Shown here in pieces: positions 6,001 to 9,000 of a stretch of DNA of 54,183 bases; position 1 is the stretch's first letter; each line of letters starts with the position of its first letter. Made by a program: the position numbers. The stretch is from Carcharhinus longimanus (Eukaryota): assembly GCA_030264375.1 (NCBI GenBank), contig JASCQW010000168.1, positions 12,684,197-12,738,379 of the forward strand. The letters run 5' to 3'.

Positions 6001-9000
6001 GAGATACTGGGTGATTTGAAACGCTAAAGAGCAGGGCTTTGGCTCAGAAATTTTCAAACATTTTCTGGAACATGTTTAGTCAGACTTCAAACTGTTATTA
6101 CTGGCAAGTGATAAGATGACACAGTTCCACTCCCCCCTACCCTAAGACAGTGATCCACAAAACCTGGAACAGCACACTCTTTACCTTTAAAGCTGCAATA
6201 TGTTATTGTGAAACCACAAAAGTGTTTTCATTCCTCATTTGCAATATAATTTTTTAAACTTGCTTGAACATACATTTCCTTAGATTAAATCAGCATGGGC
6301 AGGTGGTTCTGAATAATGTAGATAGCCTTCATCTATTTGCGTTACTTATAAACATACAATAGTGTATGTGCATCAGCAGGTTCACAGAGTAATCTGTAAC
6401 TACTAATAATTCTACATGATATATTGAAAAAAAACATAATTGCTGAAAAATAATTTCAGATCATATCCAAACAGCTGTTTGTTGGGTTTATGCATTTTCA
6501 AATAATTTCTGCTTATTTTGAACTTAATTAAATTGTACTAAATCTATCCAAATCTCAGTCTCCCAGCGCTGGAAAACCTGAGCTTCAAACTCTCGAGCTC
6601 TGAAACTAGCTGTTTTTACCAAGAAGGGTTCTTTGTGTGTATGTGTGTGTGCGTGCACTCTCCTTTATTTTGAAAGTTAATTGCATTTATTTGGGTTTGT
6701 TTAAATGCCGCAATGAAATGGAGACTTAGCGCACATCAGACAATAAAAGGATCACTTCTGGGTGGACTGCACTCTTGTCACCACTTGGCAGATTTTCTGT
6801 GTGCGCCTGTTTTTTTTTAAGTACTGTTTGAAAGGAGGGGAAAAAAAGGCACCCCAAACTACGTTGTCATGCACAGCTGTCAGCACTGGCTGTGGAATGT
6901 GACCAAGGGCACCTATGGAGGTCACTGAAAACAGAACGGATGGACTGGTATCTGTACTCCATAGACAAGCTTAGTGCCTGATGTAACTTACAGTGGACAA
7001 CACCTCCCTGTTCCCTTGCATTCAGCAGACACAGGCAACTGAGTGAAGGGTCACTGAGCAAGTAAACGTCCCCTTTGTTCCTGTTAACAAGCAGCATGGA
7101 TCCTGCCTCTTCTGTAACAGGTGCAGGCTTTGGCAAAAGCACGTGATTGTGGAATTGTGGGCTTTAAATGACTCACTTAGTAAACCCGCTTGAGCTTCAT
7201 CCTTTACTGACAAGTATGAAAGAGGAGATACATTAAAAACAAATTTAAACTGAGCATTGGCATTGTCAGAAATTATTTTTGATAGCATTCTACAACTTCT
7301 TTTCCTCTGTTCTGTTTAAAAAAAACTTAGATCAAATTTCACTGGCAAGTCTTGGCTGTCTAAAATATATAATCTGATGTTGCAGTGAGACAAATAGTTA
7401 CCAGCCAATTGGGATGCAGGACTTATAATCTTCAATGAGGCAAACAGTCAAACAAGCTTTCGCTGCACCTGTGCTTGTAGTTCATTATCTGGGATGCTGG
7501 CAAATTACTCAAAAGCAATCTGTATTAGTACAAATTGTACAGATAACACACTCGCTACCTTGTGACTGTGTTGCAGAGCTTTAGTGCTTATAATTGAATT
7601 GATGACAACTTACACACATGCTCCTTAAGCAACCTTTTAACAATCGGCACTATATGATGTATTCCATAATGCACATGGCATAAATGGTGTCAAACCAGAA
7701 ACCAGCCAAAGAGCAGATTTCCTCAATTCTGTTGTTAAGATAATTTACCATTTAACGAGAGATCAAATCATGCTTAAAAAGAAATCATGCATTTTCTCCC
7801 CTCTTCTCACTCACTTTGAAAAAAACTTGCAGACAATAGGAGAATATCAGTCTCCCACTGTACGGGTGAGTTCTTCATGGACCCCACAAAAGGTGATCTG
7901 AATCCATTCAATAATGGATATCCCAGCTGGAAGTTTCAGGACCTTCATGCTAACTTTTAAAAACCTGCTATCCATTTGGGAAACGCCCCGTCACTATTCA
8001 CCACTTGGATCTCAGTGTAGGTAAGCTAGGGAATATAGTGTGTGGGAAAAGCCAAATTCCAGGTCCCATTTCCTCCAATTCTGTGCTGCAGCAAACTGAG
8101 GATTAAAGTGTTTAAGGAAACCAGACCCATTTCCCTTAATTACTCACCAGTGCAACCTTCTCTTTTTCTAACTCCAGCTCCCATTGCTGCATTCTCAACG
8201 TGAAAGAGTTACCATTGTTTGCAGGATTGGGTAACTAGGCAGCAGTAAGATTTCTCATTGAAAATGAACCTAATTATGGACTCTCTGGGTTGCACAATAT
8301 TGTCCTGGGTCAGAACTGTGTTCAGCAACATCATGCTCTCCACAATGGGCCCCCACCTTGAAAATAATAACTAACGGACTCCGCAGTCTATACTTTGTGC
8401 TGACACTCATCAATACAAGCTCAACTTGTGAATGGGGGAGCAATAGAATCTACTGACCACAGTAGGAGAAACCCCACTGAAATTAAACTGTTCTCCTGTG
8501 ATACTGGCATTATTGTTCACAGACCTAATTCTGGAGCTGAGGTTTCAAGAAGACGCCTCCCCCGCGGGGGGGNNNNNNNNNNNNNNNNNNNNNNNNNNNN
8601 NNNNNNNNNNNNNNNNNNNNNNNNNNNNNNNNNNNNNNNNNNNNNNNNNNNNNNNNNNNNNNNNNNNNNNNNACTCCCCCCCCCCCCCCCCACCGTCTCC
8701 ATCCTACCTCCCATCAAACACACAAGATAGCAAATGGCCAATGGCATTGAGCAGACTCAACAAAAGTAACTTCTAAAAGGAAAATGTGTCCGTCCATCAA
8801 ATAATTTTAGCTGAAATTAATAAACATTGACATCAATTACAGTTTGCTTGATGCCAAATCTGAAGGTGCATTTCCTACAAGCTCTGGCATAATAACAGGG
8901 ACTGAGTGGAAATAATGTGTGACTCATGTATGCTTGATTAGTGTGCACAGTAATTGTAATAAATAGTGTCCTGTGAACAATAGCAAATCATTTGGATTAA

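What the first reader, a model, noticed from the sequence alone, without database searches (positions are those of the whole stretch)
6992..7111. Unrecognised 40-codon cassette exon candidate at the BK channel C2 site
Seen: CAG acceptor, consensus GTAAGT donor, 120 nt, the required phase 1/1, no stop codon, and a downstream TGCATG (6868-6873). Known: C2 is the main Slo1 splice hotspot, Cys-containing inserts there alter gating and palmitoylation, and downstream RBFOX sites promote inclusion. Inference: a chondrichthyan BK insert with a CLC motif. This matters because BK channels tune elasmobranch electroreceptors and vertebrate hair cells.
Basis: partly seen in the sequence, partly recalled or inferred. 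Interest (0 to 1): 0.7.

Follow-up and report, generated by a model that had tools for sequence, protein, structure and literature searches.

The report
Decayed remnant of conserved BK exon
The proposed 40-codon shark BK-channel exon is really there as sequence and sits on the worn-down copy of a longer exon-like block that many fishes keep at this splice hotspot, but its proposed end, cysteine motif and regulatory site are not conserved and nothing shows it is used.

Summary
The window is a shark KCNMA1 gene, and the C2 phases are 1/1 as stated. Taken alone these features are at chance level: the 30.3-kb intron holds 1423 open AG..GT candidates in phase 1/1.

The reading frame is not random, however. 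It is homologous to a block kept in one frame in 85 of 89 database ORFs. Three of these are named teleost models that also hold STREX, and one is spliced in frame to the next constitutive exon. The block has two near-invariant motifs, PLVNNRKGSL and RLxRARSLPVKYRYH. It also has splice-site signatures in phase 1 that define a roughly 96-120-codon exon.

The window's copy is badly worn:
- 16 of 30 near-invariant residues differ, against a worst case of 7 among the hits.
- It carries a +2-nt frameshift.
- It reads CAT where relatives read C or R at the ancestral donor.

The two Cys residues are specific to this window. None of 16 chondrichthyan isoforms seen carries the insert. The cloned skate electroreceptor BK uses the 33-nt exon, at 12085-12053 here.

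Verdict: partly supported. The candidate is most likely a decayed remnant. Whether it is spliced remains untested.

The parts
6992..7111 (-). It is open in phase 1/1 and gives 39 whole codons, EAGSML...GGVVH.
   Evidence: Searches give the sequence. One search shows that this frame is the one homologous to the conserved block.
7112..7113 (-). AG of the proposed acceptor (..CCTGTTACAG|AA). The pyrimidine tract is weak to moderate.
   Evidence: crude acceptor score -0.13. The T-E / L-E read-through is shared with P0002, P0003, P0005 and P0140.
6986..6991 (-). Proposed donor GTAAGT. It falls inside the conserved block, at the Cys codon that precedes the remnant of the RLxRA motif.
   Evidence: Teleost members read T/S/R at this position, so they have no GT there.
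6917..7206 (-). Footprint of the ancestral long exon. It is 290 nt here, which is 2 nt more than a multiple of three. The closest relative, P0002, has 96 codons in one frame.
7207..7230 (-). Ancestral-type 3' splice site: pyrimidine tract tatctcctctttcatacttgtcAG, followed by |TA AAG GAT GAA (read through as L-S-V-K-D-E).
   Evidence: Crude acceptor score 6.23. The L-[T/A/S]-V signature is present in 45 of 45 hits that show the L.V.D motif.
7177..7206 (-). The first 30 nt of the ancestral exon, bounded here by a window-specific GTGAGT donor at 7176-7171. It forms an open phase-1/1 mini-exon.
   Evidence: The donor is not shared by P0002, which reads LL-ND there.
7113..7165 (-). Interval that holds the frame change. 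The VKDE and VNRN codon starts are 119 nt apart (mod 3 = 2), against 39 codons in P0002 and P0003. A TAA in the downstream frame lies just before SPQF.
7065..7094 (-). Remnant of motif 1. The window reads LLVNRNKGDV where the hits read PLVNNRKGSL.
6945..6989 (-). Remnant of motif 2. The window reads KLHQALSLSMEYRYQ where the hits read RLxRARSLPVKYRYH.
6911..6917 (-). Position of the ancestral phase-1 donor. The window reads C|ATAGGT (codons CAT AGG T..). Relatives read C-R, R-R or C-M here, which fits Y|GT AGG or GT ATG.
   Evidence: The DNA of the relatives was not seen, so this is inferred from their residues.
6868..6873 (-). TGCATG, 118 nt 3' of the proposed donor.
   Evidence: It is not enriched in the window.
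34624..34824 (-). Constitutive exon before C2 (..RAFFYCKACHDDITDTKR / N run / DITDTKRIKKCG*KR). It ends in phase 1 at 34624, with donor GTAAGT. It holds the 100-N run 34671-34770, which I left unfilled.
28898..29071 (-). STREX exon, 174 nt, phase 1/1.
   Evidence: One search shows 100% identity to Scyliorhinus canicula isoform X6 over 57 aa.
12053..12085 (-). Annotated 33-nt C2 exon (KYGYNGYISS). This is the insert type found in the cloned skate ampullary BK.
4206..4299 (-). Constitutive exon after C2 ([30 protein letters not shown]..). It starts with the last two bases of a codon.

Best explanation
The candidate lies on the shark ortholog of an old, long alternative exon of KCNMA1 at site C2, downstream of STREX and of the 33-nt exon.

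In other fishes this exon is about 96-120 codons long and in phase 1/1. It starts at a CAG|T acceptor that reads through as L-[T/A/S]-V-x-D. It carries the motifs PLVNNRKGSL and RLxRARSLPVKYRYH, joined by a linker of variable length that stays in frame. It ends at a T|GTAAG-type donor 13-14 codons after KYRYH. It would add a disordered stretch to the RCK1-RCK2 linker. By recalled motif definitions, R-A-R-S-L-P fits a basophilic-kinase or 14-3-3 type R-x-x-S-x-P site; this functional reading is inferred, not tested.

In this window the copy has decayed. It has a frameshift in the 5' part. The ancestral donor position reads AT instead of GT. Half of the near-invariant residues are replaced.

Most likely it is a pseudo-exon, used rarely or never. 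The homology, the decay and the signatures are shown. That the block is an expressed exon in other fishes, and that it is silent here, are inferred.
For: Homology:
- The 98-codon open frame 7163-6870 matches P0002 (E 2e-8, query residues 10-87) and P0003 (E 3e-6, residues 14-77) among 1.84 billion representatives. The other two of the 4 hits are low-complexity repeats.
- A profile of these sequences finds 88 proteins at E <= 0.01.
- 28 of the 89 sequences examined hit the window frame directly at E <= 1e-3, all within residues 10-86.

Locus:
- Three named teleost models (Goodea P0189, Xenoophorus P0191, Coregonus P0204) hold STREX followed by the block.
- P0204 continues in frame into [14 protein letters not shown].

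Exon signatures:
- 85 of 89 sequences have both motifs in one frame, with spacings of 34-66 codons.
- 69 of 86 have C-K, C-R or C-E 9-15 residues after KYRY, and 57 of these are at residues 13-14. This is what read-through of a phase-1 T|GT donor gives.
- In all 45 hits with L.V.D upstream, the middle residue is T, A or S (22, 21 and 2). These are the NCN codons that allow NCAG|T.

Decay in the window:
- 16 mismatches at 30 near-invariant columns, against 0-7 in the 85 hits.
- A 119-nt spacing where relatives have 39 codons.
- From the 7206 acceptor, a stop is reached within 186 nt. Both 7206-6992 and 7206-6917 have lengths of 2 mod 3.
- CAT stands where relatives have C or R.

Annotation and cloning:
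- 0 of 16 chondrichthyan isoforms and 0 of 134 fetched KCNMA1 proteins carry the block.
- Skate ampullary clones carry no C2 insert or the 33-nt one.
Against: - No DNA of any relative was seen. Splice sites in other species are inferred from residues only.
- Protein searches can only return open, in-frame ORFs, so the figure of 85 of 89 in frame is biased upward.
- The hits are 90%-identity clusters, not independent species, and 52 of the 85 share a spacing of 50-51 codons.
- The three named models are automatic predictions. They start at an intronic ATG just before STREX.
- No transcript evidence was available for any species.
- The window frame stays open for 98 codons, which is somewhat unexpected for a long-dead exon.
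- The assembly has at least one likely base error in a constitutive exon (TGA for Cys). The frameshift or the AT at the donor could therefore be errors too.
- Only 15 of the 100 members of the shark isoform cluster were listed. The two word-based searches could not see full-length isoforms bearing the consensus block: one search was limited to 53-436 aa, and one search used the worn window peptide.
Confidence: 0.55

Rival explanations
1. Remodelled exon. After the 5' frameshift and the loss of the old donor, this shark lineage uses the AG at 7112 and the GTAAGT at 6991. This gives a real 40-codon C2 cassette, essentially.
For: - The cassette is in phase 1/1 and is open in exactly the conserved frame.
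- GTAAGT is a strong donor core.
- T-E / L-E across the acceptor is shared with the four closest relatives, and P0002, P0003 and P0005 have Cys at the donor position.
- The frameshift and the dead donor both lie outside the 120 nt.
- The frame is open for 98 codons.
Against: - The part that would stay exonic is as worn as the part that would become intron: motif 1 has 5 of 10 residues changed, and LRLS has become SCLC.
- The acceptor tract is weak.
- 7 of the 1423 candidates in the intron, this one included, score as well or better on both sites.
- No annotated shark isoform among the 16 seen has it.
- The 40-aa peptide finds nothing among proteins of 71-2000 aa, which is weak evidence.
Confidence: 0.15
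2. Conserved non-coding intronic element, such as a splicing or transcriptional regulator of the C2 region. On this view it is not an exon in any species, and the database ORFs and teleost models are gene-caller artefacts laid over it.
For: - All hits are unnamed ORFs or automatic hypothetical proteins.
- No Pfam family matches, and the Atlas model has low confidence, pLDDT 0.37.
- Similarity between the window and P0002 runs on into the flanking intron: 33% over 40 residues, E 0.005 for the single comparison, and upstream as well.
- In-frame ascertainment bias applies.
- The motif strings occur in none of the searchable papers.
Against: - A variable linker of 34-66 codons keeps the two motifs in one frame.
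- Donor-like C-K / C-R and acceptor-like NCN-V signatures sit in exactly the phase the flanking exons need.
- The Coregonus model is spliced in frame to the next exon.
- ORFs of 111-299 aa around the block in 88 clusters are hard to get from AT-rich intron by chance.
Confidence: 0.15
3. The long exon is intact in the animal, and the frameshift and dead donor are assembly errors of a gap-rich draft.
For: - The window has 10 N runs.
- Sequence is duplicated on both sides of the gap at 34671-34770.
- A TGA stands in place of a Cys codon in a constitutive exon.
Against: Sixteen replacements at 30 near-invariant positions cannot be explained by a few base errors. The decay is spread over the whole block.
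Confidence: 0.08
4. Pure chance pseudo-exon with no evolutionary history.
For: There are 1423 comparable AG..GT open segments in the intron and nine open frames of 98 codons or more on the sense strand of the intron.
Against: Significant, locus-specific homology.
Confidence: 0.02

Closest known systems
STREX exon of KCNMA1 (site C2, also called splice site 4)
   Same: It lies in the same intron and has the same 1/1 phase. It is a cassette that lengthens the RCK1-RCK2 linker. STREX is present in this window at 29071-28898.
   Different: - STREX is 91-100% identical from sharks to birds. The block studied here keeps only two short motifs, and the window copy is worn.
- The STREX cysteines are conserved. 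The candidate's two cysteines are unique to this window.
- The start of the long block (PLS.LSVKDE) looks a little like the end of STREX (PLSSVSVNDC) by eye. I did not test this resemblance.
33-nt C2 exon (P-[KR]-YGYNGY-[IL]-S-[ST]-I type insert)
   Same: It is another C2 cassette in phase 1/1, lying between STREX and the next constitutive exon. It sits at 12085-12053 in the window.
   Different: - It is annotated in shark, ray and gar isoforms.
- It is present in the cloned skate ampullary BK, KY355737 (Table 1 of PMC10486799).
- It is the top-scoring segment of my splice scan.
- The candidate has none of these supports.
Mammalian e22 / '+29 aa' C2 insert
   Same: By recalled gene order, it has the same position relative to STREX and to the following exon. 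The rat sequence printed in Table 1 of PMC3393747 shares R-Y-H and N-A-T with the 3' part of the fish block, by eye only.
   Different: No alignment was run. The rat letters come from a paper, not from a stored protein, so I did not type them into a tool. The resemblance may be chance. The mammalian insert is 29 aa, against roughly 96-120 codons for the fish block.
Intronic pseudo-exons and decayed cassette exons
   Same: An open AG..GT segment with acceptable sites and no evidence of use. The ancestral donor is lost and the frame is shifted.
   Different: Unlike a random pseudo-exon, it has a clear coding-like ancestry.

Membership tests
KCNMA1 site-C2 cassette exon | Lies in the intron between the ..KKCGCKR exon and the (L)[16 protein letters not shown] exon. 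| tested here: met
   The flanking exons end at 34624 and start at 4299. The candidate is at 7111-6992.
KCNMA1 site-C2 cassette exon | AG/GT boundaries, length a multiple of 3, phase 1/1, no stop. | tested here: met
   However, 1423 segments in the intron share this description.
KCNMA1 site-C2 cassette exon | Splice sites and frame kept in related species. | tested here: inconclusive
   The frame is shared with relatives. The acceptor may be shared, as T-E / L-E. The donor lies inside the conserved block, and teleost members have no GT there. No DNA of relatives was available.
KCNMA1 site-C2 cassette exon | Presence in transcripts or in annotated isoforms. | tested here: not met
   0 of 16 chondrichthyan isoforms and 0 of 134 fetched KCNMA1 proteins carry it. 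Only 15 of the 100 cluster members were listed. RNA-seq was not available.
Conserved long fish C2 block (PLVNNRKGSL ... RLxRARSLPVKYRYH) | Both motifs present. | tested here: not met
   Recognisable remnants only. The window reads LLVNRNKGDV and KLHQALSLSMEYRYQ, with 16 of 30 near-invariant columns differing. The hits differ at 0-7 columns.
Conserved long fish C2 block (PLVNNRKGSL ... RLxRARSLPVKYRYH) | Upstream CAG|T-type acceptor, read through as L-[T/A/S]-V-x-D. | tested here: met
   The window has TCAG|TA at 7209-7205, reading L-S-V-K-D-E.
Conserved long fish C2 block (PLVNNRKGSL ... RLxRARSLPVKYRYH) | One reading frame from the acceptor to the donor. | tested here: not met
   The spacing is 119 nt (mod 3 = 2). 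A stop is reached within 186 nt of the 7206 acceptor.
Conserved long fish C2 block (PLVNNRKGSL ... RLxRARSLPVKYRYH) | Phase-1 GT donor 9-15 codons after KYRYH. | tested here: not met
   The window reads CAT AGG at 6917-6912. The remaining phase-1 GTs downstream are poor: GTTCTG, GTGACC, GTGCTG and GTGCAT.
STREX-like palmitoylated Cys-rich insert | Conserved cysteine cluster. | tested here: not met
   C-L-C is found only in the window. Relatives and the consensus have R/L/Q and S/N there. Acylation itself cannot be tested here.
RBFOX-enhanced cassette exon | (U)GCAUG within about 300 nt downstream, usually conserved. | tested here: inconclusive
   One copy lies 118 nt downstream. The hexamer is not enriched, with 34 seen against 49 expected. 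Its conservation could not be tested.

The most novel reading that the evidence does not exclude
Fishes, cartilaginous ones included, keep a large C2 exon of the BK channel of about 100 codons that has not been described in print. It carries PLVNNRKGSL and an R-x-x-S-x-P type switch. This shark lineage has cut it down to a new 40-codon, cysteine-bearing cassette that is still spliced in some tissue.
Probability: 0.12. Interest if true: 0.7.

Novelty: new member of a known kind. Interest (0 to 1): 0.45.

Why it matters
C2 is the best-studied splice hotspot of BK channels, and inserts there change gating, phosphorylation response and trafficking.

If the long block is an expressed exon in fishes, it adds a deeply conserved C2 variant. 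This variant is apparently unreported in the papers I could search. It carries a candidate phospho-switch and would be worth cloning and recording.

For this window the practical message is more sober. The proposed 40-codon exon should not be annotated on sequence features alone. The C2 insert actually found in an elasmobranch electroreceptor clone is the 33-nt exon, 5 kb upstream in transcript direction.

Tried and rejected
I resent it with the one read-through codon before the exon. It found 3 word-sharing candidates, none with E <= 10.
- The repeat search found no repeat family covering 6867-7210, so the region is not a transposon copy within this window.
- Pfam gave 0 families for the window frame and for P0002, P0003, P0191 and P0204.
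- The ESM Atlas gave no usable feature hit, and all structural rows had TM <= 0.32.
- My crude splice scoring does not separate real exons from false ones. The true STREX acceptor scores -6.8, while the annotated 33-nt exon ranks first. I used it only to count background.
- Literature searches found nothing on such an exon. A search for four motif strings returned 0 papers. About 1.7 million PMC articles and most subscription journals are not searched. Supplements were closed; Table S1 of PMC10486799 might list more C2 linkers.
- No shark or fish genome, metagenome or read collection was available, so conservation at the DNA level and junction reads stayed unchecked.
Exons were handled one by one.
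Full report
**What the window is**

The minus strand carries part of a shark KCNMA1 (BK alpha) gene. I mapped the exons one by one with chondrichthyan reference isoforms (sequence):
- 54182-54114
- 47121-47035
- 39280-39188
- 34824-34624 (interrupted by the 100-N run 34671-34770, which I left as it is)
- STREX at 29071-28898
- a 33-nt exon at 12085-12053
- 4299-4206
- about 614-474

The STREX peptide is 100% identical to Scyliorhinus canicula isoform X6. Other exons fit Chiloscyllium and Mustelus better than Scyliorhinus. The source is therefore a shark that I cannot name. 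Nothing here was taken for human.

I built and searched no joined (spliced) model. Exons were searched singly.

**The observation**

All stated features are present:
- AG at 7113-7112
- 120 nt at 7111-6992
- GTAAGT at 6991-6986
- one open frame of 39 whole codons
- TGCATG at 6873-6868

The phase argument is correct. The upstream exon ends after the first base of a codon. The downstream exon begins with the last two bases of a codon. STREX has the same 1/1 phase.

Taken alone, this does not exceed chance.
- The 30,324-nt intron has 1423 AG..GT segments of 30-300 nt that are open in phase 1/1.
- With a crude matrix of recalled frequencies, 7 of these (the candidate included) are as good or better at both sites, and 34 on the sum.
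- That matrix ranks the annotated 33-nt exon first but scores the true STREX acceptor at -6.8. I therefore use it only as a background count.
- TGCATG occurs 34 times in the window, against 49.4 expected.
- Nine open frames of 98 codons or more lie on the sense strand of the intron.
- No repeat family covers the site.

**Homology**

The 98-codon stop-to-stop frame around the candidate (7163-6870) was scored against 1.84 billion representative proteins.
- It gave 4 hits at E <= 1e-3. Two are low-complexity repeat proteins.
- The other two, P0002 and P0003, align to residues 10-87 and 14-77, which runs beyond both proposed splice sites. Both come from unnamed Logan contigs.

A profile of these sequences plus the window frame found 88 proteins at E <= 0.01 among proteins of 53-436 aa. 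28 of the 89 sequences examined hit the window frame directly at E <= 1e-3, always within residues 10-86.

Three hits are named automatic models from teleosts: Goodea P0189, Xenoophorus P0191 and Coregonus P0204.
- All three start at an intronic ATG just before STREX, contain STREX, and then contain the block.
- P0204 goes on in frame into [14 protein letters not shown], the exon after C2.

The block therefore belongs to the C2 intron of kcnma1 in distant fishes as well.

**Anatomy of the conserved block**

The alignment of 85 hits gives the consensus VSVPLVNNRKGSLLP..PS.LRLS..GSGD...(variable)...SRL.RARSLPVKYRYHPS....ATLSH RH|CK.

- *Frame.* 85 of 89 sequences have both motifs in one frame, with 18 different spacings from 34 to 66 codons. 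The other four lack one motif by my pattern.
- *Donor.* 69 of 86 have C-K, C-R or C-E 9-15 residues after KYRY, 57 of them at residues 13-14, and 17 have none. Read-through of a phase-1 T|GTAAG or T|GTAGG donor gives exactly this. STREX itself reads ..LRA-C-K in genomic read-through.
- *Acceptor.* 80 of 88 have at least 45 in-frame residues upstream. 45 of these show L-x-V-x-D 28-57 codons before VNNRKG. In all 45 the x is T (22), A (21) or S (2). These are the NCN codons compatible with NCAG|T.

Both inferred sites are in the phase the flanking exons require. In P0002 the unit is 96 codons.

I read this as a long alternative exon of about 96-120 codons. Three caveats apply:
- Protein searches return only open, in-frame ORFs.
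- The clusters are not independent, and 52 of the 85 share a 50-51 spacing.
- I saw no DNA and no transcripts of other species.

The block has no Pfam family, and the Atlas model of P0204 is of low confidence, pLDDT 0.37. This fits a disordered linker insert.

R-A-R-S-L-P matches, by recalled motif definitions, an R-x-x-S-x-P kinase or 14-3-3 type site. That is inference only.

**State of the copy in the window**

- The ancestral acceptor is there: pyrimidine tract plus TCAG|TA at 7230-7205, read through as L-S-V-K-D-E.
- The codon starts of VKDE and VNRN are 119 nt apart (mod 3 = 2), where P0002 and P0003 have 39 codons.
- From the 7206 acceptor, a stop is reached within 186 nt. The lengths 7206-6992 (215 nt) and 7206-6917 (290 nt) are both 2 mod 3.
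- At the position where the closest relatives read C-R, R-R or C-M, the window has CAT AGG (6917-6912). This is AT in place of the inferred GT.
- At the 30 columns that are at least 85% identical among the 85 hits, the window differs at 16. The hits differ at 0-7, and the four closest relatives at 4-5.
- Similarity between the window and P0002 continues weakly into the flanking intron (E 0.005 for that single comparison). The identity within the block, 43% over 77 residues, is thus not far above that of the surroundings.

Together this looks like relaxed constraint in this lineage.

Against that reading, the frame is still open for 98 codons. The assembly also has a probable base error elsewhere, a TGA for Cys in KKCG*KR at 34633-31. 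A few errors cannot explain 16 replacements.

- Its frame is the conserved one.
- Its acceptor may be inherited. T-E or L-E is also seen in P0002, P0003, P0005 and P0140.
- Its donor cuts the block before the best-conserved motif, and teleost members have no GT there.
- The two cysteines of C-L-C are unique to the window.
- The 40-aa peptide finds no protein of 71-2000 aa, which is weak evidence.
- 0 of 16 chondrichthyan isoforms carry it. That count is 15 of the 100 cluster members listed plus Callorhinchus. 0 of 134 fetched KCNMA1 proteins carry it or the consensus block.
- The C2 states seen in those 16 isoforms are: no insert (5), STREX (6), the 3-residue extension plus STREX (2), the 33-nt exon (2), and STREX plus the 33-nt exon (1).

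**Literature**

- Passages of bioRxiv 10.1101/274449 say that both skate ampullary BK clones lack STREX.
- Passages and Table 1 of PMC10486799 show the two skate clones at C2. One has no insert. The other (KY355737) has a 12-residue stretch of the YGYNGY type, which corresponds to the 33-nt exon at 12085-12053 here.
- Table 1 and passages of PMC3393747 give the rat e22/+29 insert. By eye it shares R-Y-H and N-A-T with the 3' part of the fish block. I did not test this.
- Four motif strings of the block occur in none of the searchable full texts. The other searches (listings and abstracts only) showed nothing on such an exon.
- Supplements were closed.

**Verdict**

The most likely account (0.55) is a decayed remnant of an old long C2 exon, with the 120-nt cassette as its still-open middle.

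Rival accounts:
- a remodelled short exon that is truly used (0.15)
- a conserved non-coding element (0.15)
- assembly error hiding an intact long exon (0.08)
- pure chance (0.02)

RNA-seq junctions and shark genome alignments would decide between them.

Noticed in passing
window 34631-34633 (minus strand), beside the N run 34671-34770: There is a TGA where all 8 chondrichthyan references have Cys (KKCG*KR) in a constitutive exon. The two sides of the 100-N gap repeat the same DITDTKR-coding stretch with one base difference. This is probably an assembly artefact, and it is a warning about base quality in this window.
   Followed up: partly
window 12053-12085 (minus strand): A 33-nt C2 exon (KYGYNGYISS) is annotated in Chiloscyllium, Scyliorhinus, Hemitrygon and gar isoforms. 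It is the insert type of the cloned skate ampullary BK (KY355737, PMC10486799 Table 1).
   Followed up: yes
window 23328-24662 (plus strand), within the GC-rich island at about 22-26 kb: A 445-codon intronless open frame lies antisense to KCNMA1. It matches the C-terminal half of the protein kinase domain (Pfam PF00069, E 7e-15). It sits next to 154-nt tandem repeats at 22465-23199. It looks like a retrocopied kinase fragment.
   Followed up: partly
window 7177-7206 (minus strand): A 30-nt open phase-1/1 mini-exon is formed by the conserved ancestral acceptor and a window-specific GTGAGT donor.
   Followed up: partly
window 7180-7240 (minus strand) compared with 28900-28950: The start of the long block (..PLSYLSVKDE..) resembles the end of STREX (..PLSSVSVNDC..) by eye, and the aligner placed them together. 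This may hint at an old tandem duplication of exon sequence.
   Followed up: no
window 54114-54182 (minus strand): The exon at the window edge reads GVENDMYTEY where all 8 chondrichthyan references read GVANEMYTEY. This could be a real difference or an assembly error.
   Followed up: no
window 36114-52344: There are six copies of a 189-nt SINE-like repeat (62-100% identity to the reference copy), plus related 48-nt pieces, in the upstream introns.
   Followed up: no
window 29072-29087 (minus strand): An intronic ATG just before the STREX acceptor reads through as M-I-I-A-K-M-S. Teleost automatic gene models start at the same place (M-T-V-A-K..). STREX is thus repeatedly mis-called as a first exon.
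   Followed up: partly
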